From NCBI GenBank assembly GCA_903893485.1, contig CAITMK010000012.1, positions 83,469 to 147,468 of the forward strand: a DNA stretch of 64,000 nucleotides, given 5' to 3'. The position numbers were made by a program, and so were the translations under genes. The notes beneath the pieces are model-generated. The model worked only from the letters and a program-made list of their open reading frames with translations, was not told the DNA's origin and made no database searches. How positions within the stretch are numbered: the first letter of the stretch is position 1; each line of letters opens with the position of its first letter. Below, piece by piece: positions 140-24,092 of this stretch. The stretch is from Candidatus Magasanikiibacteriota bacterium (GTDB lineage Bacteria; Patescibacteriota; Patescibacteriia; Magasanikbacterales; 2-02-FULL-50-9b).

Positions 140-706
140 ATGAAAACGCTGAAGTGGTTTTTTGTGTTGTGTGTATTTGCACTTGTGGCCGTGGCGTGTG
201 AAAAGCAGGCTGCGTCGCAAACAGCGGGATACAACTGTGACGACTACACGGATCCCAATGAACCTCAGGTGGCAAAGCTGACGGGTAAGCTCGCGGAGCT
301 GCTCGACGAAAGCTATCATGGGACGGTCGTACGTCTCTCGGCCAAAGAGGTCGTTGATCTGCCAACGCCGCAGACGTGCGCGTACAGCAAATTCCAGAAC
401 ATCGGCACGTACAAAGATCCGGATGGCGTTTACCAATTCGCGGTGCTGGACGCCAACGACTGGGTGATTCCGGTGCTCACGTCGGCGGGCGCCATGTATC
501 AGATCTTGGTTCCGGCAAATGACGGCACGCACGATGCCTTTCGTGTTTATGTGCCAAAGATCGAGTTGGTCATGCAGCCAGAAGAAGCTGAGTGGTACAA
601 AAATTGGCGTGAGCCAGGGAGTCCACTCAGCGATATCTCGTTTGACTTTCGGTCCGTCAGCGCGGCGCAGTGCTCGGACTTGCACATTCCGCCGCGGGTG
701 AAGTAG
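140..706 (+). CDS. hypothetical lipoprotein
   Basis: 188-aa ORF. N-terminal signal peptide MKTLKWFFVLCVFALVAVAC with a lipobox-like VAC. No recognisable catalytic motif. Confidence 0.55.
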   Translation: MKTLKWFFVLCVFALVAVACEKQAASQTAGYNCDDYTDPNEPQVAKLTGKLAELLDESYHGTVVRLSAKEVVDLPTPQTCAYSKFQNIGTYKDPDGVYQFAVLDANDWVIPVLTSAGAMYQILVPANDGTHDAFRVYVPKIELVMQPEEAEWYKNWREPGSPLSDISFDFRSVSAAQCSDLHIPPRVK

Positions 707-1014
707 GTCAGGGATTCAAGTCAGGTCAGTTCAAGAGGCGCAAGCTTCGTGGACATGCCCGCCGATCAACCGATCGGGGGGTGTTTTTTTATTTGGAGAT
801 TCGCAGAGTTTTATTTTTATTTAATGCTTTCTCTGGTTTGTTGAGGAGCATCCGCAGGCGAGCCAGCACGGTTTTTTGGCGATGCCAAAAATGGCTCGCC
901 GAGGTCGAGCGCAAAAGTGCGCTGGCACTTTTGACGCGTCTCCGAGACAAGCTAGAGAAAGCATTGCATTTAATAATAAAATTCGCTAAAGTACATCTAC
1001 TAACTTCAGCTGAT

Positions 1015-4000
1015 ATGTCAGAAATGCCAAAGGCCTACGAGCCACAACAATTTGAAGATTCAATTTACGCCCGCTGGGAAGAATCCGGCGCGTTTATTCC
1101 AGAAAATTTGCCTGATTTTGCAACGCGCAAACCGTACACCATTATGCTGCCGCCGCCAAACGCAACGGGCACACTGCATGTGGGGCATTCAACCATGTTG
1201 GCCGTGCAAGACGCGCTGATTCGGTTTAATCGCATGAATGGCAAGCGCGCACTGTGGCTTCCGGGTACGGACCACGCGGCTTTGGCGACTCAAAATAAAG
1301 TTGAAAAAGATTTATTTAAAAACGAAAAAATAACGCGTCATGATTTAGGTCGCGAAGAATTGCTGAAGCGTATTGATGTGTTCGTAGAAAAAAATCGTGA
1401 CCGCATGACATTTCAAATGCGCAAAATGGGTTCGTCTCTCGATTGGTCGCGTGAAGCATTTACACTCGATGAGCCTCGTTCACGCGCGGTGCGTTTGGTG
1501 TTCAAACAAATGTTTGATGATAAATTAATTTATCGTGGCAATCGCGTGATTAACTGGTGTTCACGCTGCGCCTCAACGTTGTCGGATGACGAGCTCGGAA
1601 CCAAAACGCGCAAAGCAGTTTTGTATTCTTTCAAGTACGCCAAAGATTTTCCAATCACGATTGCATCAACGCAGCCAGAAACCAAATTGGGTGATACTGG
1701 TGTTGCGGTGTATCCGGGCGACGCACGCTACGAAGCACTTGTTGGAAAAACAATTGATGTGGATTTCGGCGGGCAGGGTGGATCGAAATTAAAAATTCAG
1801 ATCATTGCAGATCACGGTGTTGAAAAAGATTTTGGCACGGGCGCGCTTGGTGTAACACCGGCGCACAGCATGGTGGATTACGCACTCGCGATGAATCATA
1901 ATTTGCCACTTGTACAAATTATTGGCGAGGACGGCCTTATGACAGCTGCTGCTGGCAGCGCATACGAAGGACTCACGATTGCAGAGGCTCGTGAGAAAGT
2001 GGTGGCATGGCTGCGCGCAGAAAACTTAATTGAAAAAGAAGAAGAGATTGAACAAAATGTTCCAATCTGTGAACGATGCGAAACAGAAATAACACCGCTG
2101 CCAAAATTGCAGTGGTTTGTAAGCGTGGAAAACAAATTTGCATTTCGCGAATCAACGCGTGCGCCAGTTGCAGGCATTGCTGCAGGCTCACAAATCTCGC
2201 TCAAGGATTCAATGCGCCACGTTGTTGAAACAAAACAAATTAAAATTGTTCCAGAGCGTTTCGAAAAAACATATTTTCATTGGATCAATAATTTGCGCGA
2301 TTGGTGCATCTCTCGTCAGTTGTGGTACGGGCATCGCATTCCTGTGTGGTATTGCGCCGCGCCAAAAACAGAAAAATGTGCCGAAGCAGTTTGTTCCATC
2401 GAAGACATTTCAGTTTGTCAGCATTGTGGCGGCGTTGCAGAACAGGACCCAGATGTTTTGGACACCTGGTTTTCTTCGGGTATGTGGACATTCACCACAC
2501 TCGGTTGGCCATACACGCGTGTAATTTTTGTGCGTCATGGTGAAGCAGAAACAAATGTTGGTGATTTTTTAAATTCCGACGCTACAAAAGAGTATCATCT
2601 TACCGAGACTGGCCGCGCGCAAGTCGTGGCAACCGCAGAAAAATTAAAATTACAACACGTTGATGCAATTTTTGCATCGCCACTTTTGCGCACACAAGAA
2701 ACTGCAAAAATAATTTCTGATGCACTCGGATTGCCCGTAACCACCGAAGAATGTATTCGTGAAGCAGGGATGGGCGAGTTTGAAGGAAAGCTTACTGCAG
2801 AATTTGAGGCAATCATGGGCGATCGCGGTAATCCAGCAAACTGGATGCATTCGTCGCCAGGTGGCGCAGAAACATTTCAGGCGATTCGCGAAAGAACGCA
2901 TGGATTTTTAGATGAACTTATTAAAACACATACGGGTAAAACTATTGTGGTTGTTTCACATGGTGATCCAATCTGGGCAGCAGCATCGTTTGGAAAAAGT
3001 GGGGTGCTTTGGGATTCTGAGTATCCACAACGAGGTAGTTTTTACGTTCGTGAATTTGATACAACCGGTTCGCAAGTTGGCGACCTCAACACGTATCACC
3101 CAACCGATGTATTGGAAACTGGCTACGATATTATTTTTCAATGGGTTGCGCGCATGATTTTAATGTCCACGTACGCGCTTGGCGAGGTGCCATTCAAAAA
3201 CGTATATTTGCACGGCATGGTGCGTGACGAACAGGGCCGCAAAATGTCCAAGTCGCTTGGCAATGTGTTGGATCCGCTCGATGTGATTCCAAAATATGGC
3301 ACCGACGCAGTGCGCCTCGCGCTGCTCATCGGCCAGACGCCAGGCAACGACTTAAAAGTTTCCGAAGAAAAAATTGCAGGTTTCCGTAATTTCACCAACA
3401 AGCTGTGGAATATTTCGCGATTTATTTTGTCACAAGATGCAGCGTCACATTTGGTTTTGCGCGCCGACATCGACGACGAGTTGCTCACCACCATGGACAA
3501 GTGGATTTTGTCGCGCTTAGCTGGCGTTACCAAAACGGTTACCGAATCACTGCAAACATTTGCATTTTCGCGCGCCGGCGAAGCACTGCGCGATTTCACG
3601 TGGAATGAATTGGCAGATTGGTATTTGGAAGGCGCCAAAGTTGAGGGCGAAAAAGCAGAAATTTTGCAATACATTTTGCAGAATTTGCTGAAGCTGTGGC
3701 ATCCATACATGCCGTTTGTAACCGAAGCAATTTGGCAAAGCGCGTATGCATCTGGCGAAAAGGATTTTCTGATGATTGCAAAATGGCCAGACGAAACTAG
3801 CATGCCGTTGTACCCAGAAGCAGAAAAAGATTTTGCGCACGTACAAAATGTGATCGTGGCAATTCGTGCGCTGCGCACTGAGTACAAAATTGATGCAAAA
3901 GAAATAGTGCCCGTAACGATTATTACCAAATACAAAAGCACGCTTGCACAAATGCAACCAGTGATCGAACGCCTTGCGCGCGCTACATTATTATTCGCCG

Positions 4001-4269
4001 ATGCGGCACCAGCCGGCCAGCTTGCAACCGTGATTGAAGAGGGAACAATTACGATTCCAAAACCTGAGGCTGCAAATAACTCAGACGAACGCGGCGCGCT
4101 GGAAGCGGAAAAAGAAAATGTTGCACAATACATCGCAACGCTCGCAGCAAAATTAGCCAATGAAGATTTCTTGGCACGGGCGCCAGCGGCGGTGGTTGAA
4201 AAGGAGCAGGGCAAGTTACGCGAAGCGCGGGAAAAGCTGGCTGCGATTGAAGATCGGCTTGGCGCATAA
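1015..4269 (+). CDS. valS: valyl-tRNA synthetase carrying an internal histidine-phosphatase domain insertion
   Basis: Class I aaRS motifs: PPPNATGTLHVGHS (HIGH) and KMSKSLGNV (KMSKS). ValRS-type core with CP1 editing region, WCISRQLWYGHRIPVWYC, and a C-terminal coiled coil. Start chosen at the ATG at 1015 (MSEMPKAYEPQQFEDSIYARWEE...); the ORF is open from 670 but the upstream part looks non-coding. An in-frame insert of about 195 aa lies between the conserved ...DTWFSSGMWTFTTLGWP and YHPTDVLETGYDIIFQWVARMI blocks. Confidence 0.9.
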   Translation: MSEMPKAYEPQQFEDSIYARWEESGAFIPENLPDFATRKPYTIMLPPPNATGTLHVGHSTMLAVQDALIRFNRMNGKRALWLPGTDHAALATQNKVEKDLFKNEKITRHDLGREELLKRIDVFVEKNRDRMTFQMRKMGSSLDWSREAFTLDEPRSRAVRLVFKQMFDDKLIYRGNRVINWCSRCASTLSDDELGTKTRKAVLYSFKYAKDFPITIASTQPETKLGDTGVAVYPGDARYEALVGKTIDVDFGGQGGSKLKIQIIADHGVEKDFGTGALGVTPAHSMVDYALAMNHNLPLVQIIGEDGLMTAAAGSAYEGLTIAEAREKVVAWLRAENLIEKEEEIEQNVPICERCETEITPLPKLQWFVSVENKFAFRESTRAPVAGIAAGSQISLKDSMRHVVETKQIKIVPERFEKTYFHWINNLRDWCISRQLWYGHRIPVWYCAAPKTEKCAEAVCSIEDISVCQHCGGVAEQDPDVLDTWFSSGMWTFTTLGWPYTRVIFVRHGEAETNVGDFLNSDATKEYHLTETGRAQVVATAEKLKLQHVDAIFASPLLRTQETAKIISDALGLPVTTEECIREAGMGEFEGKLTAEFEAIMGDRGNPANWMHSSPGGAETFQAIRERTHGFLDELIKTHTGKTIVVVSHGDPIWAAASFGKSGVLWDSEYPQRGSFYVREFDTTGSQVGDLNTYHPTDVLETGYDIIFQWVARMILMSTYALGEVPFKNVYLHGMVRDEQGRKMSKSLGNVLDPLDVIPKYGTDAVRLALLIGQTPGNDLKVSEEKIAGFRNFTNKLWNISRFILSQDAASHLVLRADIDDELLTTMDKWILSRLAGVTKTVTESLQTFAFSRAGEALRDFTWNELADWYLEGAKVEGEKAEILQYILQNLLKLWHPYMPFVTEAIWQSAYASGEKDFLMIAKWPDETSMPLYPEAEKDFAHVQNVIVAIRALRTEYKIDAKEIVPVTIITKYKSTLAQMQPVIERLARATLLFADAAPAGQLATVIEEGTITIPKPEAANNSDERGALEAEKENVAQYIATLAAKLANEDFLARAPAAVVEKEQGKLREAREKLAAIEDRLGA
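2512..3093 (+). other. inserted histidine phosphatase (PGAM/SixA/CobC-like) domain inside valS
   Basis: Insert sequence YTRVIFVRHGEAETN...SPLLRTQETA...GEFEG...VVVSHGDPIW. It carries the RHG catalytic-His motif, the SPL-x-R-x-x-TA motif and the distal SHG His motif typical of histidine phosphatase branch 1. It is flanked in frame by conserved ValRS Rossmann-fold blocks. Confidence 0.75.
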
Positions 4270-4296
4270 GCGGCATTGACTTTTTACCAAAAATCC

Positions 4297-4326
4297 CGTA
4301 GGGTGGCTGAAGCGCCACCCTTTTTG
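4297..4326 (+). terminator. rho-independent terminator after valS
   Basis: Stem gggtggc / gccaccc with a short loop, followed by ttttt. Confidence 0.6.
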
Positions 4327-4332
4327 GCGTAA

Positions 4333-5226
4333 ATGAGGTCTTTGATGAATTTGTATATTCGCTTTGACAGTGCATCGTCGGGCGCTTTTACCAATCTGCA
4401 CATCCTCGGCGGGGCTGAGGCCACCGTCAATGGCGAGCCGTTCGATGCCATGAATGAAACGCATCTCATGGAGGCGCTGAAGCTTGTGAAACTGCCGCGC
4501 AACGTGCGGCGCGGCCTTCTGAAAGTCGGGTTTTTCAAGCCCGATGAGCCGCATCTTGGAGATCCGAATGATCGCGTGATCGACTTCACGCACGCGATCG
4601 GGACTCCCGAAGGTGATTTCGAACCACTTGCGCCGCACACGGTGCGGGCACGCACGACGGCCAACATCGCCGTGGTGCGCAATCCCCGCAAGGGATCGAT
4701 GCAGTTCGCGGCGCGTGCCTCGGATTCCTGGATTGGCGTTTTGCGCGTTTACGCGCTTGGTCGCATCCAGCCGGTGGCCATGTTTTTCATCCATTTGGGT
4801 CGCGGCTGCGTGCTGCCACGGCAGGGCGGCAAGAGCGTCTTCGAGACCATCAAACAGTGGTGCCTCGATCAGGAGTTGGGCATCGTGCGGTCGGAGCTGA
4901 CGATTTCGGGTGGCATTGGCCCGTGCTGCTACCGGTTTGAGGACGCCACCAAGCTGAAGGGAGAAGTTTTCGCGCGTTACGGCGAAACGGGCGAGCGGAT
5001 CATCGGCAAATCCGGCGACGACCCCCGCGACTCGTTCGACATGCACGGCTTGATCCGCGAGGAGTTCGAAGGTGTGTTTGGGAAGATCCCTGAGCATCTC
5101 ATTCAGGTGTTCCAGGAACCGACCTTCTGCTGTGCGTGCCATCCTGCGGAGGGCAGCGATTTTGCGCTGAACTCCCAGGTGCGCTCGAAAAAAACGCGCC
5201 GCGACCTGTACCTCGTGGAAGTGTAA
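4333..5226 (+). CDS. hypothetical protein, possibly divergent YfiH/PgeF (DUF152) laccase-domain family
   Basis: 297-aa ORF in a GC-rich block. Motifs FFIHLGRGC and GGIGPCCYRFED resemble the YfiH HAGWRG and GPxIGPCCYEV blocks. The overlapping minus-strand ORF 4216..5142 is R-rich and looks antisense. Confidence 0.45.
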   Translation: MRSLMNLYIRFDSASSGAFTNLHILGGAEATVNGEPFDAMNETHLMEALKLVKLPRNVRRGLLKVGFFKPDEPHLGDPNDRVIDFTHAIGTPEGDFEPLAPHTVRARTTANIAVVRNPRKGSMQFAARASDSWIGVLRVYALGRIQPVAMFFIHLGRGCVLPRQGGKSVFETIKQWCLDQELGIVRSELTISGGIGPCCYRFEDATKLKGEVFARYGETGERIIGKSGDDPRDSFDMHGLIREEFEGVFGKIPEHLIQVFQEPTFCCACHPAEGSDFALNSQVRSKKTRRDLYLVEV

Positions 5227-5245
5227 CCACCGCCGCTACAACTCT

Positions 5246-5297
5246 GACCGCTCACGTTCTATTCGGAATGCGTGAGCGGTCGGGGTTCTTTTTTTTT
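5246..5297 (+). terminator. terminator-like hairpin plus T9 run
   Basis: 11-bp perfect stem gaccgctcacg / cgtgagcggtc (5246-5256 / 5271-5281) followed by ggggttc and ttttttttt. Confidence 0.5.
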
Positions 5298-5314
5298 GCC
5301 GCAGGCGCAAAAAT

Positions 5315-5356
5315 AAAAATCCACCTGGAGCCCGCGCGGATGCGTGGGGCAGGTGG
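5315..5356 (-). terminator. minus-strand terminator hairpin, repeat copy 1
   Basis: aaaaat-CCACCTG-gagcccgcgcggatgcgtgggg-CAGGTGG. On the minus strand the hairpin is followed by a T-run. It lies immediately downstream of the stop of gene 5385..5864(-). Confidence 0.6.
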
Positions 5357-5384
5357 GGCGTGTAGCAGGCGGCGTGGCGCCGGC

Positions 5385-5864
5385 CTATTCGGGGTTGGTG
5401 TCCAGGAAGGCGCTAAACAGCTCGAAGAGTGCAGTGAACACATCTGTCGGGTTGATCAGCAATCCGTTCTGGCCGATGTGTCGCTTCATCCACGACCGCA
5501 AGGAGCGCGGCGGCTCAAGCGACGAGATCATGAAGCGCATGATTGACCATTGCGCATCATCACTACATTCCAGCATGAGCGAATTCGCCATTTCGGGCTC
5601 GTCGCGCTTCATCCAGGTGAATGACACGCAGAAGCCGCAGTAGATCGTCGCGCGACGGTGGATCGAAATGCTGTGTCTGCACGCGTAACCGTGCTTCACG
5701 AGTGAAAAAATCGAGGCGTGTGGATCCTCGCTGTTTTTCCAGTCAGCATCCGGCCAAAGGCGCAATTGTTTCAGGGCATCCTCGAGCGTTTTTTGGGCGC
5801 GCAAGGTTTTTTCCGTCAGCGCAAATTGCTGCGGAGACGGGATGGTATGGGTCGTTGTGCTCAT
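5385..5864 (-). CDS. hypothetical protein (GC-rich cassette)
   Basis: Start set at MSTTTHTIPS, preceded by GGAGGAACC immediately 5' of the ATG on the minus strand. About 160 aa, Cys/His-containing, no recognised family. Confidence 0.5.
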   Translation of the reverse strand: MSTTTHTIPSPQQFALTEKTLRAQKTLEDALKQLRLWPDADWKNSEDPHASIFSLVKHGYACRHSISIHRRATIYCGFCVSFTWMKRDEPEMANSLMLECSDDAQWSIMRFMISSLEPPRSLRSWMKRHIGQNGLLINPTDVFTALFELFSAFLDTNPE

Positions 5865-5959: not shown

Positions 5960-6001
5960 AAAAATCCACCTGGAGCCTACGCGGATGCGTGGGGCAGGTG
6001 G
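5960..6001 (-). terminator. minus-strand terminator hairpin, repeat copy 2
   Basis: aaaaat-CCACCTG-gagcctacgcggatgcgtgggg-CAGGTGG. 40 of 42 positions are identical to 5315-5356. Immediately downstream of the stop of gene 6022..6696(-). Confidence 0.6.
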
Positions 6002-6021
6002 TGAGCGATAAGCGTCTTCGA

Positions 6022-6696
6022 CTAGGTGTTCAACTTGTCGAAAAGCTGTTGCAGATGCTGGCCGTGATTGTGCTCGACGAACGTCGTCCAATTCTTGAGG
6101 CGATCGACATTGCCGAGCGCGTAGTAATGGTTCGAACGAGTGAACACGGCATCTCCGTCTGTTTTGGTATTGCAGTGACCGAGGTGTGTTAAGCTCACGA
6201 TGTGTTCCATTGAGAGTTTAAACCGTCGAATTCTCGATAGTTCGCTGTTTGGATCGACCATTTCCGCGCTGCCATCTTCGTCAATCCTCAGCTGGCCGCA
6301 ACGAGGCTCCTCGGCAACGTGCAGCTTCAAGCTCCAGGGCGCGGCCTTGGGTAGTTCATAGGCCATCAAGATGTGGAGCGAAAGTTCGATCGAGTCCCAC
6401 AAATCACCAACTGAATGATTGCAGCGGATGAACAGTGCCTTGCTTGCAATCGCCGCGTCGAGATCACTCAGCAATTTGCTGAGGTCGGTCGCGCGCTCAC
6501 GATAGCCTTCGAACGAACGATGGTCGTCGAGCGTGTGCCACAGCAGCACTGCATCAAGCACCTTGTCGCCAGTCGTGGCGCCCATGAGCAGCTTGTCGTG
6601 CAAACGCCGCCGCCGCTTGTACTGCCTCACGGCAGCCGAGCTCAGTCGCACTTCAACATTGCGGATCGTATTCAGAGAACGTTGCGTGATTGACAT
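6022..6696 (-). CDS. hypothetical protein (GC-rich cassette)
   Basis: Start set at MSITQRS with GGAGGG upstream. Contains His/Asp-rich stretches (WHTLDDHRS, CNHSVGDLWD, VEHNHGQH) that vaguely recall metal-dependent hydrolases, but no confident family assignment. Confidence 0.45.
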   Translation of the reverse strand: MSITQRSLNTIRNVEVRLSSAAVRQYKRRRRLHDKLLMGATTGDKVLDAVLLWHTLDDHRSFEGYRERATDLSKLLSDLDAAIASKALFIRCNHSVGDLWDSIELSLHILMAYELPKAAPWSLKLHVAEEPRCGQLRIDEDGSAEMVDPNSELSRIRRFKLSMEHIVSLTHLGHCNTKTDGDAVFTRSNHYYALGNVDRLKNWTTFVEHNHGQHLQQLFDKLNT

Positions 6697-6796
6697 TGCT
6701 TGGGCCCTCCATTGGCCTGGGAGCATTTAATCATGAGAGTGTGCGATTGTCAATCCTCCCGCTTTCCGCTATTATGGCTTTATATCGAACGTTTTT

Positions 6797-8005
6797 ATGG
6801 CTCAAATCTCAACCGACAAGAAAAAAATTGCAGAATTGCTGGATCGTGGCGTTGCCGAAGTTATTGTGCGCGAGGATTTGGAAAAGAAATTGGCAAGCGG
6901 CCAGCAGCTGCGCGTGAAATTGGGTATTGATCCAACGTCGCCGAATTTGCATCTGGGTCGCTCGATTCCGCTGCTCAAGTTGCGCGACTTCCAGCAGCTC
7001 GGCCACAAAATTGTTTTTATTGTTGGTGATTTTACGGGCATTATTGGTGACACGTCGGACAAAGACGCGGAGCGCCCGATGCTGACCGAAGAAACGATCG
7101 CGAAAAATTTGGAAACCTACGTGGCGCAGGCCGGCAAAATTATTAATTTGGACGAGGCGGAGATTCATTTTAATTCCGCATGGCTCGGCAAACTCGGCTT
7201 CAAGGAAATCGGCGAGCTCGCAAACATTTTTAGTGTCGCGGAATTTGTGGCGCGCGAAAATATCGCCAAGCGCCTGGACACCGGCAAGCGCGTGAGCCTG
7301 CGCGAAATGCTGTACCCGCTCATGCAGGGGTACGATTCCGTTGCGGTGAAGGCAGACGTTGAGCTCGGCGGCACGGACCAGCGATTTAATGTTTTGGCGG
7401 GCCGCACCATTCAGCCGCACTACGGCCAGGCGGCGCAGAATATTGTTTTGAATCCGCTGATTAACGGGTTGGATGGGCGCAAGATGTCGAGCAGTTGGGG
7501 GAATGCGATTAATTTATTGGATGCGCCGGCGGATATGTACGGCAAAGTGATGTCGTTGCTCGACGAATTGGTTTTGGAATATTTTATGTGCGCGACGCGT
7601 GTGGAGATGGCGGAAATTACTGCGATGCAGGAGCAATTGGCTGGCGGCACAAATCCGCGTGATCTGAAAATGCGTTTGGGTCGCGAATTGGTAACGATGT
7701 ACCATGGTGCGGATGCTGCAGCGGCAGCCGAGGAACATTTTAAAACTGTGCACCAGCAAGGCGGCGTGCCGGAGGATATTCCAGAAATGAAAGTCGATTG
7801 GACGCAGGCGCCACTCGTGGATGTTTTAGTTGAATCAAAATTGTGTTCAAGCAAATCCGACGCCCGCCGCCAGATTACGGAAGGTGGTGTGAAGGTTGAT
7901 GGCGTTGTGGTTGAGGATGTCGGGGCGATGGTTGATTTGAGTGGAAAGAGCGAAGGCGTTTTGGTGCAGAAGGGGAAGAGATGGTTTGTGAAAATAGTGT
8001 CTTGA
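6797..8005 (+). CDS. tyrS: tyrosyl-tRNA synthetase
   Basis: GIDPTSPNLHLGR (HIGH-like), KMSSSWGN (KMSKS-like), C-terminal S4 domain (ARRQITEGGVKVDGVVVED). Confidence 0.85.
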   Translation: MAQISTDKKKIAELLDRGVAEVIVREDLEKKLASGQQLRVKLGIDPTSPNLHLGRSIPLLKLRDFQQLGHKIVFIVGDFTGIIGDTSDKDAERPMLTEETIAKNLETYVAQAGKIINLDEAEIHFNSAWLGKLGFKEIGELANIFSVAEFVARENIAKRLDTGKRVSLREMLYPLMQGYDSVAVKADVELGGTDQRFNVLAGRTIQPHYGQAAQNIVLNPLINGLDGRKMSSSWGNAINLLDAPADMYGKVMSLLDELVLEYFMCATRVEMAEITAMQEQLAGGTNPRDLKMRLGRELVTMYHGADAAAAAEEHFKTVHQQGGVPEDIPEMKVDWTQAPLVDVLVESKLCSSKSDARRQITEGGVKVDGVVVEDVGAMVDLSGKSEGVLVQKGKRWFVKIVS

Positions 8006-8007
8006 AT

Positions 8008-8289
8008 ATGGCCTCCGAAGATTACGATAAAGCAAAACAAATCGTCAAAGATTATACACTTGGAAAAGTCAGTGGAGAAGATAATAAATTACGAGCAGCT
8101 TGCGCCTTGTTAGAATCTGAAACTTTTACTCTGATTGAGAAAGCGATTAGAGATGGGATTGATTCGAATGAATTGCTCGCCAAGTCTAACCAGGTATATT
8201 CCGACAGAATGCGTACATTAACATTTGCGCTTGTCCTGATCGGAGCTATACAAATCATAGTTTCCGTTACCGGATTATTTTTAAAATAG
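8008..8289 (+). CDS. small tail-anchored membrane protein, hypothetical
   Basis: ATG directly after the tyrS stop. Soluble N-terminal part with a C-terminal TM (LTFALVLIGAIQIIVSVTGLFL). About 32% GC. Confidence 0.45.
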   Translation: MASEDYDKAKQIVKDYTLGKVSGEDNKLRAACALLESETFTLIEKAIRDGIDSNELLAKSNQVYSDRMRTLTFALVLIGAIQIIVSVTGLFLK

Positions 8290-8292
8290 AGT

Positions 8293-9123
8293 ATGTACTT
8301 AATTCTTCTCGCAATCAGTTTTGTTTTAGCTCAGGTTATAGCTCGCGGACTTTTTGATAGAAATTGGAGAGTAAAAGCACAGGAAAATGTCGATAGCATT
8401 AAAAATGAAAAAATATTTTGGTACCTGATGAGTCAGAAAGTAAATGCGGAAAAAGTTTTTTCTGCTTATTTGAGGACGAGAAATCAAAAAGACACTATTA
8501 GGGTTGGCGATTGTGTAATGGACGAATCTTCCGATAAAAATAATTTAAGAGCAAATGATCTTGATATAAGCACAATCATCGAGGGTGATAATATCTGGGT
8601 GATCAATTCTGAATTGAATCCAAAAATAGAGCAGAAAGAAAAAACTATCGATGATTTGTTGACTGAAAACAGAGTCCTTTTTTCAGAGGAAGAAATTCGC
8701 AAAAGTTTCAAGGTATATTTTGATGAGCATTTTTGGAACATTGATGAAGTACAAAAAAACTATAATCAATTCATGATCAATCATCTCGATGCGCTTATAA
8801 AATGTGACAAGACGGGTTTGGGGATTTGGAAAGTTTTAAAGGATTTTTCAGTTAACGAGCACAAATTTGAATTCGATCGTTGGGGTGAAAAACATATTGA
8901 ATTTCTTGATTCTTTAAAATTGCTCCAAAATGATATAAAAAGTTTCGTGATATTTTTTATTTGTGAAAAAATTGAAAATCCTAAGACCCTAAAGAAGGTG
9001 CTTACAGAATGGCAGCAGTTACAAATGCTTAGATGGTGTGTGGTGGATTTTAGCTTGTGGGAAATTGGGAAGAATAAAATTCAGACAAGTGTGTGGCGGC
9101 TTACGACCTCTTTGTTTTTATAA
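8293..9123 (+). CDS. hypothetical membrane-anchored protein
   Basis: 276 aa with N-terminal TM (MYLILLAISFVLAQVIARGLF), then a K/E/D-rich soluble domain. AT-rich. Separated from its neighbours by 4 and 13 nt. Confidence 0.5.
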   Translation: MYLILLAISFVLAQVIARGLFDRNWRVKAQENVDSIKNEKIFWYLMSQKVNAEKVFSAYLRTRNQKDTIRVGDCVMDESSDKNNLRANDLDISTIIEGDNIWVINSELNPKIEQKEKTIDDLLTENRVLFSEEEIRKSFKVYFDEHFWNIDEVQKNYNQFMINHLDALIKCDKTGLGIWKVLKDFSVNEHKFEFDRWGEKHIEFLDSLKLLQNDIKSFVIFFICEKIENPKTLKKVLTEWQQLQMLRWCVVDFSLWEIGKNKIQTSVWRLTTSLFL

Positions 9124-9135
9124 ATTTAACTAAAT

Positions 9136-9991
9136 ATGGAGCCAAACACCTTTCTGAAACAACTCTTGTTTTCTACTGTTCGCATAGAGGCGGATACTGA
9201 TGACGCTGGAAAGAAAAGTGTTGGAACCGGTTTTCTTGTGGCAAAAAAGATAAGCGATTCCGAACAGCAAATTTTTCTCATAACCAATAAACATGTCATT
9301 GCAAGAGCAGATGAGGTTGGAAAAATTATAGGCAAATTTGGTAAGGCACGTTTTTCATTTGTAAAAAGTGAAAAATAATAGCCCGAAATTAGGTAATTCA
9401 GTTGTAATAAATGTCGATGCTTTAACGGATATGTTTTTCCAGCATCCGGATGAAAATGTTGATCTGGCGATATGCAATATTTCTGAGTTATACAACCAAT
9501 TAAATCAAGGTAAACAAAATATTTTTATCAGAACTATTCCTATCGAAATGATTCCAGCGGAAAATGAAAATTTTGATGCCATTGAAGACGTTTTGTTCGT
9601 TGGCTATCCAAACGGAATCTTTGATCAGAAAAATCATTTGCCAGTTATGAGACGAGGGATTACTGCCTCTGCGTATGATGTTGATTTTAATGGCGGTAAA
9701 AAATTTCTTATTGATGCGCAGGTTTTTCCTGGTTCAAGCGGAAGTCCTGTTTTTATCAAAGAGCAAAATTTAAGAAATGGTACATTAAAACTTGGTGTAG
9801 AAAGATATTTTTTTGTTGGCGTCATTTCAAAGGTATTTCATAGGATTGAAACCGGTGATCTGGTTGAATCAACCGTCCCCACAAGTTTTGTGGCTAATAG
9901 TTTTTCGATCAAACAGATGATTGGACTGGGTATTTGCGAAAAATCAAATCAAATTTTTGAGCTAATCGAACTCATAAATAGAGTCAGCTAA
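9136..9991 (+). pseudogene. cytoplasmic trypsin-like (S1/PA clan) serine peptidase, interrupted by a +1 frameshift in an A5 run
   Basis: ORF 9136..9378 carries the His block LITNKHVIA. ORF 9368..9991 carries the Asp block NVDLAICNI and the Ser block GSSGSPVF. The two halves overlap at gtgaaaaataatag in different frames. No signal peptide. Confidence 0.6.
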
Positions 9992-10023
9992 TTCTTGCTT
10001 GTCGTGACTAAAGTAATAGGTTT

Positions 10024-10491
10024 ATGCTCGCCTCATTTCTCCAATCCCTCACCACCTCCATCCTCGCGCTCTTCCGCCAAGACGCGAATTTTAAAAACAC
10101 CCTTCCGCTCCACGATTATCACGGGTTTCAAAAAGCGCGCATTCCATCTGCGACGCTCGCTGCAATCGCTGCGGCGCACACTGTGAATCCCGACGAGCTC
10201 CAGGCCGAATGGGTTGTGGTGACGCAGGATTTGTTGAGCGAAATTCATTGCCACCTGCGCTCGCGCGCGTATTGCATCGTGATGGGCGCGGCCGAGCATG
10301 TGCCGGACCCGGCGCGCGCGTTTGTGTTTTTGCATGATGCGTGGATGCCCGTCGTGGCCGGCCAAACCATCGACATCCCGCCCGGCGCTGCGCACGGCTT
10401 CACCATCCACCCTGGCGGCACGCTCCACTTTTTGTCCGTCCAAACTCCGCCTATCGAAAGCGCGGCAGGGGATGATTATGAAAAAGTGTGA
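10024..10491 (+). CDS. cupin-domain protein
   Basis: GQTIDIPPGAAHGFTIHPGGTLHFL matches the cupin motif. GC-rich (about 60%) insert between AT-rich flanks. Confidence 0.55.
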   Translation: MLASFLQSLTTSILALFRQDANFKNTLPLHDYHGFQKARIPSATLAAIAAAHTVNPDELQAEWVVVTQDLLSEIHCHLRSRAYCIVMGAAEHVPDPARAFVFLHDAWMPVVAGQTIDIPPGAAHGFTIHPGGTLHFLSVQTPPIESAAGDDYEKV

Positions 10492-10518
10492 TATTCTATA
10501 CGTAGTTAATTTTAGAAT

Positions 10519-10898: not shown

Positions 10899-11405
10899 AT
10901 GATGACCCCGGCACGCCTTGCGACGCAAAAAATAATTGTACTCACACTGCTTTATGCTTTTTTAGTCGTCGGTATTGTAGGGCTCGCACGCGCAGTATAC
11001 GATAGTCATGCGCAGTATCGTACGGAATGGATCGCGGACCGTGCAACAGTTACTTCACTTTCGGTGCGGACCATTTCTTCGGGGGACCGCGCAGGTAGAA
11101 CTCCGGATCTTGTTGCGGATGTTATCTATTCATATATTGTCGGCGACGTAGCACTCGAAGGTGCTGCTACTGATGAAACATTGTTATCTGACACTTCAAA
11201 TAATGAAAAATATGTACGCGACAAATATGTAACAGGCGCGAAAATCACCATTTTTTATGCGGCTAATGATTTCAAAAAAACAACACTTGAATCGCCAGAT
11301 CAATTGCGTTCAGATTTTATAATGTACACGACGCTTCTCGGTGTAATGTGTCTGATTTTAATAGTAGCGATCTGTATTCACGTGCGCCGATGCCGGCACC
11401 CTTGA
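10899..11405 (+). CDS. DUF3592-like membrane protein (TM, beta-rich domain, TM)
   Basis: N- and C-terminal TM segments around AQYRTEW..ATVTS..YSYIVG..GAKITIFY. Paralogous to 12271..12786. Confidence 0.5.
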   Translation: MMTPARLATQKIIVLTLLYAFLVVGIVGLARAVYDSHAQYRTEWIADRATVTSLSVRTISSGDRAGRTPDLVADVIYSYIVGDVALEGAATDETLLSDTSNNEKYVRDKYVTGAKITIFYAANDFKKTTLESPDQLRSDFIMYTTLLGVMCLILIVAICIHVRRCRHP

Positions 11406-11533
11406 CATTTTCGAAAAAAACTGCTATCTTTTTATACAATCTGGCCAAACCGTGCTGGAGGGAGATGTCCATGAATAGTTCCTAGTAGTATTCATCTTTT
11501 GCCTACCAAGGCTACAGATAAAAATGCGTGACA

Positions 11534-11548
11534 CGGTGTCACTCTGAC
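11534..11548. promoter_or_regulatory. perfect inverted repeat GTGACAC-g-GTGTCAC upstream of 11592 gene
   Basis: 15-bp palindrome about 45 bp upstream of the start codon. RBS GGAGGAAC lies before the ATG at 11592. Confidence 0.4.
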
Positions 11549-11591
11549 CGCTCTGTGGCCACAAGCCACAAGCGTAAATCGGAGGAACATC

Positions 11592-12185
11592 ATGTACCAC
11601 GAAGAATCCAAGAATCTGCGCAAGTTCGCATACTGCACGCACACCGTGTTGGCTGCGAAACTACGCGAGGCAGCAGAGCAGAAGTTGTCGGAGGGGCGCG
11701 AACTCTTCCGTATCAATTTGAAGCTCGAGGTGACCACGAGCGTCGACAAGCTGATCGGTCTGCGGCGCGAGCTGCAAGCCTACGAAGCTGAATTCGACGG
11801 TCGCGAGCGACATTGGCTGCGCACCACAGAGCGTGCGCAACAACTCAAGGCAGCGATTTCCGACGAGTCGGAGTCGCTGACCGTGCAGGAGTTGGATGCG
11901 ATGAGTGATTGGTGCAAGGCCGGCGTTTTTGCGGCCGAGCAATTCTTGCGACCCTTCCGCGCGGCCAAGGCCGAGCGTGAGCGGATCGCAGCAGAGAAAG
12001 AAAAGGAGTGCGTCACTGCACGCGAGGCCGCGCGCCTGAAAGATGAACCCGGCCGTCACGCGCGCCGTGAATTCCAAGAGCAGCGGCTGCGCGAAAAGCA
12101 AGCGCAGCGTTTCGTGCACGAGTACCAGAGTCGTCCGCGGCGCTGGTACAAAGAGCAGAAGAAGTTGAAGCAGCAAACGCGCTGA
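11592..12185 (+). CDS. hypothetical charged coiled-coil protein (GC-rich cassette)
   Basis: 197 aa, R/E/K/Q-rich heptad-like sequence, strong RBS. The opposite-strand ORF looks antisense. Confidence 0.5.
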   Translation: MYHEESKNLRKFAYCTHTVLAAKLREAAEQKLSEGRELFRINLKLEVTTSVDKLIGLRRELQAYEAEFDGRERHWLRTTERAQQLKAAISDESESLTVQELDAMSDWCKAGVFAAEQFLRPFRAAKAERERIAAEKEKECVTAREAARLKDEPGRHARREFQEQRLREKQAQRFVHEYQSRPRRWYKEQKKLKQQTR

Positions 12186-12202
12186 GCGCAATTGCGGTGA
12201 AC

Positions 12203-12250
12203 GGCCGTTCGATTCCTTTCGCGGGGAGTCGAACGGTCTATTTTTTATTT
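12203..12250 (+). terminator. rho-independent terminator
   Basis: ggccgttcga / tcgaacggtc stem (1 mismatch) followed by tattttttattt. Confidence 0.55.
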
Positions 12251-12270: not shown

Positions 12271-12786
12271 ATGATTGTTAACGCATCTATTGATCCAAAA
12301 AAAGCGACCTTTAGACATTATGCAGTTACATACGCAATGTCACTCATAACGATAGCAGCTTTTGGTTTACTGAGTTTGGATAGTTACGCGCAATATCACA
12401 TGCAATGGAATTCAGCGACGGCCACAGTTACCGATGTACAGGTAGATTCAGCACATAATCGGGGCGATGTGTTGGTGAGTTTGGAATACACGTATGCAGT
12501 AAATGGCGTTTCGTATGATAGTCAATCAACAAAAGTTGTGCATATTCCGAGTACACTTGAAAATAGAAATTTGTTAGCGGCGCAGTATGCATCAGGAACA
12601 AAGATTAATATTTTTTATGAGGTCAAAACCCCGGATAAAACCATGGTAACTGAGCCTGATAAATCCCCCATCAATTTTATTGGTGAGTTAATCGCAACAA
12701 TAGCTATGTCATGCCTACTTATTTTTGCGATATATACTAATATTGTGATAGTTCTGCAAAAGAAAAAGTTAGGTGGTAAAACATAA
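12271..12786 (+). CDS. DUF3592-like membrane protein, paralog of 10899..11405
   Basis: Same TM-beta-TM architecture: AQYHMQW..ATVTDV..YTYAVNG..GTKINIFY. Confidence 0.5.
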   Translation: MIVNASIDPKKATFRHYAVTYAMSLITIAAFGLLSLDSYAQYHMQWNSATATVTDVQVDSAHNRGDVLVSLEYTYAVNGVSYDSQSTKVVHIPSTLENRNLLAAQYASGTKINIFYEVKTPDKTMVTEPDKSPINFIGELIATIAMSCLLIFAIYTNIVIVLQKKKLGGKT

Positions 12787-14971: not shown

Positions 14972-15009
14972 CCTACCCGACGTGCCTTACGGGGCTCGTG
15001 GGGTAGGGT
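14972..15009 (-). terminator. minus-strand terminator hairpin
   Basis: cctacccgacg / cgtggggtagg stem (1 mismatch). Flanked 5' on the plus strand by an A7 run, which is a T-run on the minus strand. Directly downstream of the stop of 15040..15696(-). Confidence 0.5.
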
Positions 15010-15039
15010 TTGAAACTGCTGTGTCCGGCCGAAGTTCGG

Positions 15040-15696
15040 CTAGATCGCGGCAGCCGTCGTGGTGATGCGGCCGTGCTGGTCAGCCAAGGTGCGCGCGAGC
15101 ATCAGGTCCGGGATCTTGGGGAACTGGGGTTCCCAATACCACCACTGATTGCTCGTGGGCATCGGGCCGTGGCGATGCGCCAGCTTGTGGAACACCTGCT
15201 GCAGGATGCGGGGCTGCATGCTCGTGAGACCTGCCAGCATGATGCGCTTGAAGTATTGCCGCTCCATGATTGCAGTCGTCTTGAGCACCTGAGTCCAGCC
15301 GAAGTAGGGCGCCAGCTGCCGCGCGGCACTGCACATCTCGAGCGAGTCAAAGATCTTCGCGTCGGTGAGGCGTTCGTCGGACCGGCAGATCATCAGCGTT
15401 TCGCGGATGTTGTCCGCGGCCGGCTGCACCTGCTCCATGATCGCATTTTCAATCTCGGACCGCTCATTCGGCAGAATGCCGGTGGTGCAGATGTGGATCT
15501 GCGACGGCGTGCACTGGTAGGCCACGTGCCGCAGCAGCAGGTTCCCCAGCGCGAACGCCATGCGCTTGCGCGACTTGGAACCGGGCTGTTTGTAGGAAAA
15601 CGCGGCCATCATCGCCAGGAAACTCTCCAAGGTCGTTTGACCCATGTCGGTTTCCATCTCTTCTGCAATCGCCGGAAGTGCCAAAGTTTTTTTCAT
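15040..15696 (-). CDS. hypothetical protein (GC-rich cassette)
   Basis: 218-aa ORF with protein-like composition. The overlapping plus ORF 15010..15699 is R/G/H-rich and looks antisense. Confidence 0.45.
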   Translation of the reverse strand: MKKTLALPAIAEEMETDMGQTTLESFLAMMAAFSYKQPGSKSRKRMAFALGNLLLRHVAYQCTPSQIHICTTGILPNERSEIENAIMEQVQPAADNIRETLMICRSDERLTDAKIFDSLEMCSAARQLAPYFGWTQVLKTTAIMERQYFKRIMLAGLTSMQPRILQQVFHKLAHRHGPMPTSNQWWYWEPQFPKIPDLMLARTLADQHGRITTTAAAI

Positions 15697-15810
15697 TAAC
15701 TGTCTCCAAAGTAGGCCAAATCAAGCGGCCCGATCATCAAGATACACGAAACATGCTAAAATGTCAATGGTCGCGTGGTATGACAGGTAATTCAGATATC
15801 TCACTTCATT

Positions 15811-22865: not shown

Positions 22866-24092
22866 ATGAAAATTTTTAATAAGAAATCACTCGCATTTGC
22901 TTGTGTAATTTCTTCGGCAATTAGTTTGGGCGGCCCAATCGTGGCGTTTGCGGCAGGTCCAGTGACAGTTAACCTATTATCTGCAGGTAACTATACTATT
23001 TTGGCAAAGTCAGGCATTTCAACAACAGGCACTACAAAAATTGTGGGCGACATCGGCGTTAGCCCCGCGGCCGCAACTTTTATTACAGGCTTTGGCCTAA
23101 GCCTAACTGTGGCGAACCCTTACGCAACAGCACCTCAAGTAACGGGTAAAGTTTATTCACCAAATTACGCATCGCCAACACCTACAAACATTTCAACCGC
23201 GGTAAATGATATGCAGACTGCATATACCGATGCGGCAGGTCGCACCAACCCAACTGCAACCGAATTAGGATCGGGGAATATTGGTGGCATGACCTTAGCC
23301 CCAGGATTATATAAATGGGGTACGAGCGTAACAATTCCAAGTAATTTGATATTAGCTGGTGGTGCAGATGATGTTTGGATTTTTCAAATCGCACAAACAC
23401 TCAATGTTAGTTCTGCTACAAAAGTGCTTTTGAGCGGCGACGCACAGGCAAGTAACATTTTTTGGGTGGTTGGTGGCCAAACAACAATTGGCACCACTGC
23501 ATCTTTTGTTGGCAACATTTTAGATCAAACCGCAATTGTATTAAACACCGGTGCATCTTTAGATGGTCGCGCACTCGCTCAAACCGCGGTTACCTTAGAT
23601 TCTAATTCAGTGACGGCTTCAGTGCCAACACTGATTTTAAATCCGACGCCAGTTGCTGTAACACCAGCACCGGTGTTCACGACTCCAACGGTGGTTGTCT
23701 CGCCACAAGCTCCAATCGTGAGTGCTCCTGCGGTAAGCAATGTTATTGCTAGTAATAATGGTCCGATTCCATTTGGCTTGATTTCGGCTCCAGCTGCATC
23801 AAGTTTTGTTGCTGTGCCAGCTGCGGCTGCGACAACTGGTTTGCAGATCAAATCAATCACAAAAAATCTTGTTCAAAGTGGTGCGGGAAATGATATAACG
23901 GTATTACAACAGTTTCTTATTGCGCAGAATAAAGGTTCTGCAGCACGAGCGTTGGGAAAAGTGGGCGCAACCTCACATTTTGGGGTATTAACCCGTGCTG
24001 CTTTGGCGGAGTTTCAGAAAAATGTTGGCATTGTTCCAGCGCTAGGAAATTTTGGCGCAATTACAAGAGCGTATATTAGCTTACATTACTAA
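22866..24092 (+). CDS. secreted DUF3494 (ice-binding-like) family protein with C-terminal peptidoglycan-binding domain
   Basis: Signal peptide. AGNYTILAKSGISTTGTTKIVGDIGVSP...LAPGLYKWGTSVTI...VWIFQIAQTLNVSSATKVLLSGDAQASNIFWVVGG...GRALAQTAVTLDSNSVT matches the DUF3494 pattern. PG_binding_1-like tail. Confidence 0.7.
   Translation: MKIFNKKSLAFACVISSAISLGGPIVAFAAGPVTVNLLSAGNYTILAKSGISTTGTTKIVGDIGVSPAAATFITGFGLSLTVANPYATAPQVTGKVYSPNYASPTPTNISTAVNDMQTAYTDAAGRTNPTATELGSGNIGGMTLAPGLYKWGTSVTIPSNLILAGGADDVWIFQIAQTLNVSSATKVLLSGDAQASNIFWVVGGQTTIGTTASFVGNILDQTAIVLNTGASLDGRALAQTAVTLDSNSVTASVPTLILNPTPVAVTPAPVFTTPTVVVSPQAPIVSAPAVSNVIASNNGPIPFGLISAPAASSFVAVPAAAATTGLQIKSITKNLVQSGAGNDITVLQQFLIAQNKGSAARALGKVGATSHFGVLTRAALAEFQKNVGIVPALGNFGAITRAYISLHY

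What the first reader, a model, noticed from the sequence alone, without database searches (positions are those of the whole stretch)
8006..9995. AT-rich (about 32% GC) three-gene operon: tail-anchored small protein, TM protein, cytoplasmic trypsin-like protease (candidate conflict/defence module)
Immediately after tyrS the composition drops to about 32% GC for 2 kb. Three genes are packed with 4-nt and 13-nt spacers. The first is a 94-aa protein with a C-terminal TM. The second is a 276-aa protein with an N-terminal TM. The third is a protease of about 285 aa from the chymotrypsin/S1 fold (His in LITNKHV, Asp in DLAICN, Ser in GSSGSPVF) with no signal peptide. By established comparative-genomics knowledge, standalone cytoplasmic trypsin-like peptidases are recurrent effector components of bacterial conflict systems. 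The compositional foreignness fits a mobile accessory module. The two membrane partners match no family I recognise, so this could be an undescribed system.
Basis: partly seen in the sequence, partly recalled or inferred. Interest (0 to 1): 0.6.

Follow-up and report, generated by a model that had tools for sequence, protein, structure and literature searches.

The report
Broken defence-candidate protease in mosaic islet
The AT-rich stretch after tyrS is a patchwork of separately acquired genes, not a three-gene system: its protease is a frameshift-broken copy of an already catalogued but untested phage-defence candidate (PADLOC PDC-S45), and the two membrane proteins are not its partners anywhere else.

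Summary
The AT-rich islet is real. At 34.7% GC it is the lowest 2 kb in the window. g1 (93 aa) has a C-terminal TM segment, and g2 (276 aa) has an N-terminal one.

The "285-aa protease" is not one ORF. A single extra A in an A-run (9371-9375) splits it into 80 aa carrying His and 207 aa carrying Asp and Ser. A second contig of the same strain shows the same split.

Once repaired, it is a full-length member of PADLOC PDC-S45 (E 8.9e-81). This family was catalogued as an untested defence candidate because its members lie embedded in BREX, DISARM or Type I R-M systems.

The nearest relatives (71-84% identity, from candidate-phyla-radiation bacteria) abut nuclease genes:
- hsdS-protease-hsdR, twice
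- EcoRI-like methylase-protease-GmrSD/HNH, twice
- HNH-protease, twice

None of them has g1 or g2.

g2 belongs to a rare family with no recognisable fold. It sits in serine-recombinase elements, and its downstream neighbour varies. g1 is an orphan. DNA similarity to other loci stops at the ORF edges.

Verdict: a mosaic of independent cassettes holding a probably dead PDC-S45 protease. The triad hypothesis is refuted, and the defence flavour of the protease is partly supported. Low to moderate interest.

The parts
6797..8005 (+). tyrS (402 aa), the housekeeping gene that forms the left border of the islet; 52% GC
   Evidence: Pfam tRNA-synt_1b 9.7e-69, with SYY_C-terminal and S4; GC
8006..9995 (+). 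AT-rich islet (34.7% GC), the lowest 2 kb in the window. It has no flanking direct or inverted repeats and no recombinase. No terminator-like site was found between tyrS and g1.
8008..8289 (+). g1: an orphan 93-aa ORF (102 aa if it starts at ATG 7981 inside tyrS) with a C-terminal TM segment at residues 72-92
   Evidence: The only hit among 5.8 billion proteins is itself. The chance of an open frame of 93 codons at this composition is about 1e-3.
8293..9123 (+). g2: a 276-aa all-helical protein with an N-terminal TM. It belongs to a rare uncharacterised family found in serine-recombinase or primase-bearing elements of uncultured bacteria. Its neighbours vary from locus to locus.
   Evidence: 15 homologues. 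40 cluster representatives among 1.84 billion. No Pfam, PADLOC, PHROG or NCBIfam match. AF2 pLDDT 70.7 with no significant fold match in PDB (best E 0.84) or viral BFVD (best E 6e-3). Contexts.
9136..9378 (+). N-terminal fragment of the PDC-S45 protease (80 aa, catalytic His53), ending at TAA 9376-9378 because of the frameshift
9371..9375 (+). A5 run carrying one extra A relative to intact homologues. This is the +1 frameshift site; frame 2 is open from 9365.
   Evidence: DNA alignment A1. The same split is seen on a second contig.
9368..9991 (+). C-terminal fragment of the protease (207 aa as called, catalytic Asp110 and Ser204 in GSSGSP). The repaired gene 9136-9991 encodes 284 aa.
   Evidence: PADLOC PDLC05022 PDC-S45 8.9e-81 over residues 1-283. 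phrog_7688 3.9e-59. AF2 model with Foldseek hits. dN/dS against intact relatives is 0.04-0.11.
10024..10491 (+). First gene to the right of the islet (155 aa, 59% GC, no family match); the right border

Best explanation
The 2-kb AT-rich stretch after tyrS is a horizontally acquired patchwork of independent single-gene cassettes. It sits in the chromosome of an uncultured bacterium, probably from the candidate phyla radiation (Patescibacteria). It is not a three-component system.

The third gene is a member of the PDC-S45 family. These are standalone cytoplasmic trypsin-like serine proteases, catalogued by PADLOC as an untested phage-defence candidate because members lie embedded in BREX, DISARM or Type I R-M systems. 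In the closest relatives this protease cassette is wedged, co-oriented and with gaps of about 0-15 nt or a 4-nt overlap, right next to a restriction nuclease gene. The arrangements are hsdS-protease-hsdR, methylase-protease-GmrSD/HNH, and HNH-protease.

In this window the cassette has landed behind an unrelated gene instead. That gene, g2, belongs to a rare membrane-anchored helical family from integrative elements. The protease has also taken a 1-nt insertion that separates the catalytic His from Asp and Ser. As encoded it is most likely an inactive relic.

Inferred, not shown: where the family is intact it acts as an accessory to restriction. One possibility is a latent protease that fires when the neighbouring nuclease system is disabled, as PrrC does. 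Another is a protease that processes the adjacent nuclease, like the MBL-nuclease/trypsin-like protease pairs. g1 and g2 are unrelated cargo of unknown function.
For: - Frameshift: there are two ORFs in different frames. One extra A is seen against three intact homologues. The same split is called on a second contig.
- Family: PDC-S45 8.9e-81 at full length, Trypsin_2, an invariant H/D/S triad, and a chymotrypsin fold. PDCs are defined as untested candidates embedded in BREX, DISARM or Type I R-M (10.1101/2024.01.29.577857).
- Contexts of relatives at 71-84% identity: L004 and L113 in Type I systems, L001 and L114 between an EcoRI-like methylase and a GmrSD/HNH REase, L008 and L022 after an HNH nuclease, L110 after a methyltransferase, and L024 beside a serine recombinase.
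- A distant member lies at the end of a Type I R-M next to McrBC on a Bacillus plasmid.
- No co-occurrence: 99 protease loci and 17 g2 loci share no locus (6 of the 17 are contigs of this window's own strain that stop before the protease). g1 is an orphan. hhalign finds no relation between g2 and the other protease neighbours.
- Nucleotide similarity stops at the ORF edges: 8278-9125 for g2 and 9131-9983 for the protease.
- g2's neighbours vary across 5 contexts, 3 of them with a serine recombinase within about 2 kb.
- The window is housekeeping chromosome and has no PADLOC hits in the flanks.
Against: - The frameshift is a single homopolymer indel in metagenome assemblies. The two contigs showing it may derive from related data, so an assembly error is not excluded.
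- The repaired gene keeps every family-invariant residue. Its dN/dS (0.04-0.11) is like that of intact pairs. Any inactivation is therefore very recent.
- A defence role for PDC-S45 has never been tested. I found one paper that mentions it, and that one only as a hit.
- Part of the wider family sits in carboxysome operons behind a BMC-domain gene, so the family is not uniformly defence-related.
- In a survey of the nearest large ORFs in 80 genome loci, only about 4 are R-M subunits.
- The tight 3-nt and 12-nt spacing of g1-g2-protease would also fit a real operon.
- The host lineage is inferred only from the taxonomy of the nearest homologues.
Confidence: 0.75

Rival explanations
1. One reading: g1, g2 and the protease form one three-gene conflict or defence system, with two membrane components plus a cytoplasmic protease effector.
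For: The genes are co-oriented and tightly packed, with 3-nt and 12-nt spacers. They share a low GC. The protease family is defence-associated.
Against: There is no co-occurrence in 99 protease loci, or in the 5 independent g2 contexts outside this strain. g1 has no homologue. DNA similarity ends at the ORF edges. g2's downstream partner differs in every context. The protease is frameshifted.
Confidence: 0.04
2. The frameshift is a sequencing or assembly artefact. The protease is intact and works here as a standalone single-gene PDC-S45 defence gene, and g1 and g2 are unrelated neighbours.
For: There is a single indel in a homopolymer. All invariant residues are retained, and there are no other stop codons over 855 nt. 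dN/dS is 0.04-0.11. Short-read assemblies of this strain break repeatedly inside the islet, at 8416-8632 and at 9473-9875, which points to poor coverage there. Standalone family members exist on small plasmids.
Against: The same split is called on two contigs. From my own knowledge, a 5-nt homopolymer is short for an Illumina indel error.
Confidence: 0.2
3. g2 is the conserved, membrane-anchored core of a modular two-gene system that pairs with interchangeable downstream effectors: proteins of 144, 168, 192, and 275/282 aa, and here the protease.
For: In all 6 contexts g2 is followed at 3-29 nt by a co-oriented gene. Two of the partners (L020 282 aa and L101 275 aa) are homologous at 40% identity. 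An HTH regulator lies upstream in two contexts. The elements are mobile.
Against: The partners share no domain with each other, apart from the one homologous pair (L020 282 aa / L101 275 aa). The sample is small, at 5 contexts. The same pattern is expected from cassette shuffling in a variable region. g2 has no recognisable domain or fold.
Confidence: 0.1
4. The break is a programmed +1 frameshift at AAA-TAA (9373-9378), or the two fragments assemble into a split protease.
For: A stop codon directly after a Lys codon in an A-rich run resembles +1 shift sites such as prfB (my own knowledge).
Against: All 50 or so close homologues are in frame at this position. There is no upstream Shine-Dalgarno-like stimulator. 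No precedent exists in the family.
Confidence: 0.02

Closest known systems
PADLOC PDC-S45 (single-gene phage defence candidate; Payne et al. 2024, bioRxiv 10.1101/2024.01.29.577857)
   Same: The repaired protein gives a full-length HMM match (8.9e-81, profile positions 11-285 of 293). It is a standalone cytoplasmic trypsin-like protease of about 285 aa. Close relatives lie embedded in Type I R-M, which is how PDCs were defined.
   Different: The copy here is frameshifted and is not embedded in or next to any defence system. The family's defence function is untested.
MBL-nuclease / trypsin-like protease pairs of Hachiman, AVAST, Lamassu and DRT (Tuck et al., Science 2025, PMC12799240)
   Same: A trypsin-like protease of defence loci is encoded right beside a nuclease gene. 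There are weak PADLOC matches to the protease domains of RT-Protease_XI (4.7e-08) and LmuA (7.8e-06).
   Different: In those systems the protease is fused to HamA, Avs or LmuA and the nuclease is an MBL-fold proenzyme encoded upstream. Here the protease is standalone. The relatives' neighbours are HNH, GmrSD or HsdR nucleases. In the window the neighbour is g2, which is not a recognisable nuclease. No proteolytic activation has been shown.
PrrC / EcoprrI (an anticodon nuclease embedded in a Type I R-M operon)
   Same: It is an accessory effector gene embedded within hsd operons. The relatives L004 and L113 show hsdS-protease-hsdR.
   Different: The enzyme class is different (protease against ABC-ATPase/anticodon nuclease). 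No evidence of latency or a trigger exists. The window copy is not inside an hsd operon.
HtrA/DegP/DegS and other secreted S1 proteases
   Same: Chymotrypsin fold and a His-Asp-Ser triad. These are the best Foldseek hits (E about 5e-6, TM about 0.5).
   Different: There is no signal peptide, no TM and no PDZ domain. Identity is only 12-16%. A profile search of PDB sequences finds nothing at E<=0.01.

Membership tests
PADLOC PDC-S45 | Full-length match to HMM PDLC05022 | tested here: met
   E 8.9e-81, 269 bits, residues 1-283 against profile positions 11-285 of 293, using the frameshift-repaired translation
PADLOC PDC-S45 | Intact, non-pseudogene coding sequence | tested here: not met
   One extra A at 9371-9375 splits the gene into ORFs of 80 aa and 207 aa. 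Whether this is real or an assembly error cannot be settled without reads.
PADLOC PDC-S45 | Embedding in or adjacency to BREX, DISARM or Type I R-M (the basis on which the family was nominated) | tested here: not met
   In the window the neighbours are tyrS, g1, g2 and hypothetical proteins, with no PADLOC hits in 10 flanking ORFs. The feature is met in relatives L004, L113 and L119.
PADLOC PDC-S45 | Demonstrated anti-phage activity | not testable with these tools
   PDCs are predictions only. The one paper that mentions PDC-S45 lists it only as a hit.
S1 / PA-clan trypsin-like serine peptidase (Pfam Trypsin_2) | Profile match above the gathering score | tested here: met
   PF13365 at 44.6 bits against a cut-off of 27.6, E 3.2e-11
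S1 / PA-clan trypsin-like serine peptidase (Pfam Trypsin_2) | Catalytic His, Asp and Ser in that order, conserved | tested here: met
   H53, D110 and S204 (GSSGSP) are invariant in 14 sequences down to 41% identity
S1 / PA-clan trypsin-like serine peptidase (Pfam Trypsin_2) | Double beta-barrel chymotrypsin fold | tested here: met
   AF2 pLDDT 82, pTM 0.85. There are 81 PDB matches at E<=1e-3, led by Umb1, DegP and DegS.
HtrA-type secreted or periplasmic protease | Signal peptide or TM anchor, plus PDZ domain(s) | tested here: not met
   The maximum 19-residue hydropathy is 0.97. There is no PDZ hit. The N-terminus is conserved as part of the fold.
Nuclease-protease pair (Tuck et al. 2025) | An MBL-fold pro-nuclease gene immediately upstream, and a protease fused to a defence enzyme | tested here: not met
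   The upstream gene g2 is all-helical and matches no family. The protease is standalone.
Conserved three-gene system (g1-g2-protease) | Co-occurrence of the three genes in other genomes | tested here: not met
   0 of 99 protease loci carry g1 or g2. None of the 5 independent g2 contexts outside this strain carries the protease. g1 has no homologue.

The most novel reading that the evidence does not exclude
PDC-S45 proteases are the protease half of a second, undescribed kind of nuclease-protease pair. They would gate or back up the HNH, GmrSD or HsdR restriction nucleases they abut. In this window the cassette has been re-paired with g2, which would make g2 a new membrane-anchored effector or sensor controlled by proteolysis. 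More broadly, g2 would be the fixed core of a modular system with swappable downstream effectors.
Probability: 0.08. Interest if true: 0.7.

Novelty: new member of a known kind. Interest (0 to 1): 0.25.

Why it matters
For this window it matters little. It corrects an annotation: the locus is a split pseudogene or assembly error of a catalogued candidate family, not a new three-gene system.

The side observation is more useful. In candidate-phyla-radiation genomes a nearly identical protease cassette (71-84% identity) recurs in six different restriction contexts, always abutting the nuclease gene. That makes PDC-S45 a concrete, testable candidate for a protease that guards or activates restriction nucleases. 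It would extend the recently shown nuclease-protease principle beyond MBL nucleases.

The carboxysome-linked branch is a warning that a PADLOC PDC-S45 hit alone does not imply defence.

Tried and rejected
- g1: a homology search found only g1 itself.
- hhalign of the g2 profile against other accessory neighbours of the protease found no relation. These were the 260-aa and 164-aa genes inside the Type I operons, the 216-aa gene in L022 and the 210-aa BMC protein.
- The 277-aa convergent gene next to the protease in L008 is unrelated to g2.
- A search for an empty site or a strain variant lacking the islet failed. All other contigs of the strain are collinear with the window at 99.4-100% identity and simply break inside the islet.
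- Flanking repeats, promoters, terminators, tRNA or ncRNA as integration marks: nothing convincing, and the nearest tRNA is 12 kb away.
- The phage collection gave only a partial hit at 32% identity in Shigella phage SfII.
- A PDB sequence-profile search for the protease found no hits.
- The organism's name could not be obtained.
Full report
**Observation**

The composition change is real. The tyrS gene (6797-8005, 52% GC, GC3 61%) is followed at once by about 2 kb at 34.7% GC. By gene, g1 is 38%, g2 33% and the protease 35.5%, with GC3 of 30-34%. The next gene (10024-10491) is back at 59% GC. Among all 2-kb windows of the 64 kb (mean 46.1%, sd 3.4%), the islet is the minimum.

Three co-oriented reading frames are present:
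- g1 runs 8008-8289 (93 aa). An in-frame ATG at 7981, inside tyrS, would give the 102 aa that some gene callers report.
- g2 runs 8293-9123 (276 aa).
- The protease region runs 9136-9991.

Hydropathy confirms a C-terminal TM in g1 (residues 72-92) and an N-terminal TM in g2 (residues 1-21). The protease has no hydrophobic segment at all (maximum 0.97), so it has no signal peptide. The spacers are 3 and 12 nt.

The protease is not one ORF. ORF 9136-9378 (80 aa, containing LITNKHV with the catalytic His) ends at a TAA. ORF 9368-9991 (207 aa, containing DLAICN and GSSGSPVF) is in the +1 frame.

I aligned the DNA with three intact homologues (L008, L001, L004). The window reads GTGAAAAATAAT where the others read ATG-AAAATAA. 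That is one extra A in the run at 9371-9375.

A second contig of the same strain (13 kb, ERZ1426703) carries the same 80-aa ORF followed by a second ORF.

Removing one A restores a 284-aa protein that aligns end to end with its relatives and keeps every invariant residue. Pairwise dN/dS of the repaired gene against relatives is 0.04-0.11, the same range as among intact relatives. The lesion is therefore either very recent or an assembly artefact. Reads would decide this, and I could not access them.

**What the protease is**

Far more strongly, it matches PADLOC model PDLC05022 'PDC-S45' (8.9e-81, full length) and phrog_7688 of unknown function (3.9e-59).

The AF2 model (pLDDT 82, pTM 0.85) has the chymotrypsin fold. 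Its best PDB matches are the Umb1 protease subunits, DegP, DegS and DegQ, at E about 5e-6 and 12-16% identity. A sequence-profile search of PDB finds nothing.

More than 3,100 homologues exist across bacteria and archaea, and the family occurs in 106 plasmid records.

PDC stands for 'phage defence candidate'. Payne et al. (bioRxiv 10.1101/2024.01.29.577857) nominated 145 such families because members lie embedded in BREX, DISARM or Type I R-M systems. None of these PDCs was tested. The only paper that mentions PDC-S45 lists it as a PADLOC hit in Sinorhizobium prophages.

**Is the triad conserved? No.**

- g1 has no homologue other than itself among 5.8 billion clustered proteins.
- g2 has 15 homologues there, and 40 cluster representatives in a filter-free profile search of 1.84 billion proteins.
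- I fetched 99 loci that encode the protease and 17 that encode g2. Six of the g2 loci are the window's own strain. tblastn finds no locus with both genes.
- At the nucleotide level, similarity of the islet to other loci covers 8278-9125 (g2 only) or 9131-9983 (protease only). It never spans the junction.

The islet is therefore a mosaic of cassettes with separate histories.

**Contexts of the nearest protease relatives**

These relatives are 71-84% identical. The genome records are labelled Saccharibacteria, Minisyncoccia and Paceibacterota, and one is a probably mis-binned 'Gammaproteobacteria' contig.

| Locus | Arrangement |
|---|---|
| L004 | hsdM - 164 aa - hsdS - PROTEASE - hsdR |
| L113 | hsdM - 260 aa - hsdS - PROTEASE - hsdR |
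| L001, L114 | EcoRI-like methylase - PROTEASE - GmrSD_N/HNH endonuclease (PADLOC REase_II 1.2e-79) |
| L008 | HTH - HNH_repeat/HNH nuclease - PROTEASE, beside a serine recombinase |
| L022 | HNH_repeat/HNH nuclease (223 aa) - PROTEASE |
| L110 | SAM methyltransferase - PROTEASE |
| L024 | serine recombinase (divergent) / PROTEASE |

In six of eight independent contexts the protease is co-oriented with a nuclease gene and touches it, with gaps of about 0-15 nt or a 4-nt overlap.

A distant member (35% identity) on a Bacillus wiedmannii plasmid sits at the end of a Type I R-M, next to McrBC. Others are lone genes beside recombinases on small plasmids.

The family is not uniform, however. I surveyed the nearest ORF of at least 150 aa on each side in 80 genome loci. 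Only 4 are HsdS and 3 are HsdR, 9 are integrases or recombinases, and 8 are BMC-domain proteins.

Those 8 loci, together with a Nitrobacter plasmid, place the protease 1-17 nt after a 208-210-aa BMC-domain gene. On the Nitrobacter plasmid that gene follows BMC-domain genes, a CbbQ-family gene and a gene annotated norD. So a PDC-S45 hit does not by itself mean defence.

**g2 and its contexts**

The g2 family is well conserved (74% mean column identity). It has an N-terminal TM and an all-helical body (AF2 pLDDT 70.7). It has no significant structural match in PDB (best E 0.84) or in BFVD (best E 6e-3).

Outside this strain it occurs in five contexts:
- HTH - g2 - 144 aa, next to a serine recombinase (L013).
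- 74 aa - g2 - 168 aa, inside an element with a D5-type primase and a serine recombinase (L016).
- HTH - 185 aa - g2 - 282 aa (L020).
- ParE ... 358 aa - g2 - 275 aa (L101).
- Recombinase fragments ... g2 - 192 aa - 274 aa (L103).

The downstream gene is always co-oriented and 3-29 nt away, but it belongs to different families. Only the 282-aa and 275-aa proteins are homologous, at 40% identity. None of these partners is a protease. hhalign finds no relation between g2 and the other accessory genes that flank the protease elsewhere.

**Setting in the window**

The window is ordinary chromosome. It carries ValRS, TyrS, ArgRS, CTP synthase, NusA and GroEL.

Ten ORFs flanking the islet have no PADLOC match. 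I found no recombinase, no flanking repeats, no terminator-like site between tyrS and g1, and no nearby tRNA.

Other assemblies of the same strain are collinear with the window but break inside the islet. Left-hand contigs end at 8416-8632 and right-hand contigs start at 9473-9875. No islet-free variant was found.

**Mechanism**

Shown:
- The gene encodes an S1-fold protease with an intact triad, and it is split by a frameshift.
- The family is catalogued as a defence candidate.
- The nearest relatives are inserted beside restriction nucleases.
- The three genes do not travel together.

Inferred: intact family members serve the adjacent restriction system. They may act as a back-up effector released when restriction is blocked; PrrC in EcoprrI is the textbook case of an hsd-embedded effector, cited. 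Or they may process the neighbouring nuclease; proteolytic activation of a pro-nuclease by a trypsin-like protease has been shown for MBL nucleases in Hachiman and AVAST (PMC12799240). Neither mechanism has been tested for PDC-S45.

In this window the protease has no nuclease neighbour, and as written it lacks a contiguous catalytic domain. I therefore rate it a probable relic (about 0.7), with an assembly error as the main alternative.

**Comparison and novelty**

The protease is a new, damaged member of a known candidate family. The 'two membrane partners' are an orphan ORF and a rare uncharacterised family with no demonstrable link to the protease.

Interest for the window is low. The recurring nuclease-abutting placement in candidate-phyla-radiation genomes and the g2 'variable partner' pattern are leads rather than findings.

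Noticed in passing
L059, L063, L071, L074, L079, L080, L088, L100 (protease at about 6001-6800; upstream ORF e.g. L063:5358-5984) and L117:5363-6828: A proteobacterial branch of the protease family (36-40% identity) lies 1-17 nt downstream of a 208-210-aa BMC-domain (carboxysome-shell-like) gene. On the Nitrobacter plasmid this gene follows BMC-domain genes, a CbbQ-family gene and a gene annotated norD. This is a non-defence context for a 'PDC-S45' hit.
   Followed up: partly
window 8416-8632 and 9473-9875: At least nine independent metagenome contigs of the same strain end or start inside the islet, while being 99.4-100% identical to the window. This suggests a coverage drop or population heterogeneity in the AT-rich stretch. 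No islet-free variant was seen.
   Followed up: partly
L004:4431-4925 and L113:1868-2650: The candidate-phyla-radiation Type I R-M operons that carry the protease also have a second embedded gene of unknown function (164 aa or 260 aa) between hsdM and hsdS. Neither has a Pfam match above threshold.
   Followed up: partly
L020:1878-2726 and L101:3022-3849; L020:473-1030 and L103:5873-6451: Two g2 loci share a homologous downstream partner of 275-282 aa (40% identity, with an internal hydrophobic segment). Two others share a protein of 185-192 aa with a near-identical N-terminal TM (MYIPTWILVIGII / MYISTWIIVIVII). This hints at a recurring gene pool around g2.
   Followed up: no
window 670-4269: The valyl-tRNA synthetase is 1199 aa and carries a histidine-phosphatase (His_Phos_1) domain hit inside the synthetase, according to the precomputed Pfam list for the same protein on a sister contig.
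   Followed up: no
window 27063-39308: A single ORF of 4081 aa; not examined.
   Followed up: no
window 4250-5500, 10000-10500, 11500-12250, 15000-15750: There are GC-rich patches (57-62%) in a 46% GC window, some with long overlapping antisense ORFs (e.g. 4216-5142 on the minus strand against 4333-5226 on the plus strand). The region is compositionally mosaic well beyond the islet.
   Followed up: no
window 10899-11405 and 12271-12786; 22866-24092: Two paralogous-looking small TM proteins lie just right of the islet: one has a sub-threshold DUF3592 match here, the other a weak DUF3592 hit in the precomputed list. An ice-binding-like protein (PF11999, 2.7e-75) lies further on.
   Followed up: no
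L008 vs L022 protease genes: The proteases behind a 389-aa and a 223-aa HNH nuclease are almost identical (dN 0.009, dS 0.097), although the nuclease genes differ in length. This indicates recent movement or remodelling of the HNH-protease pair.
   Followed up: no
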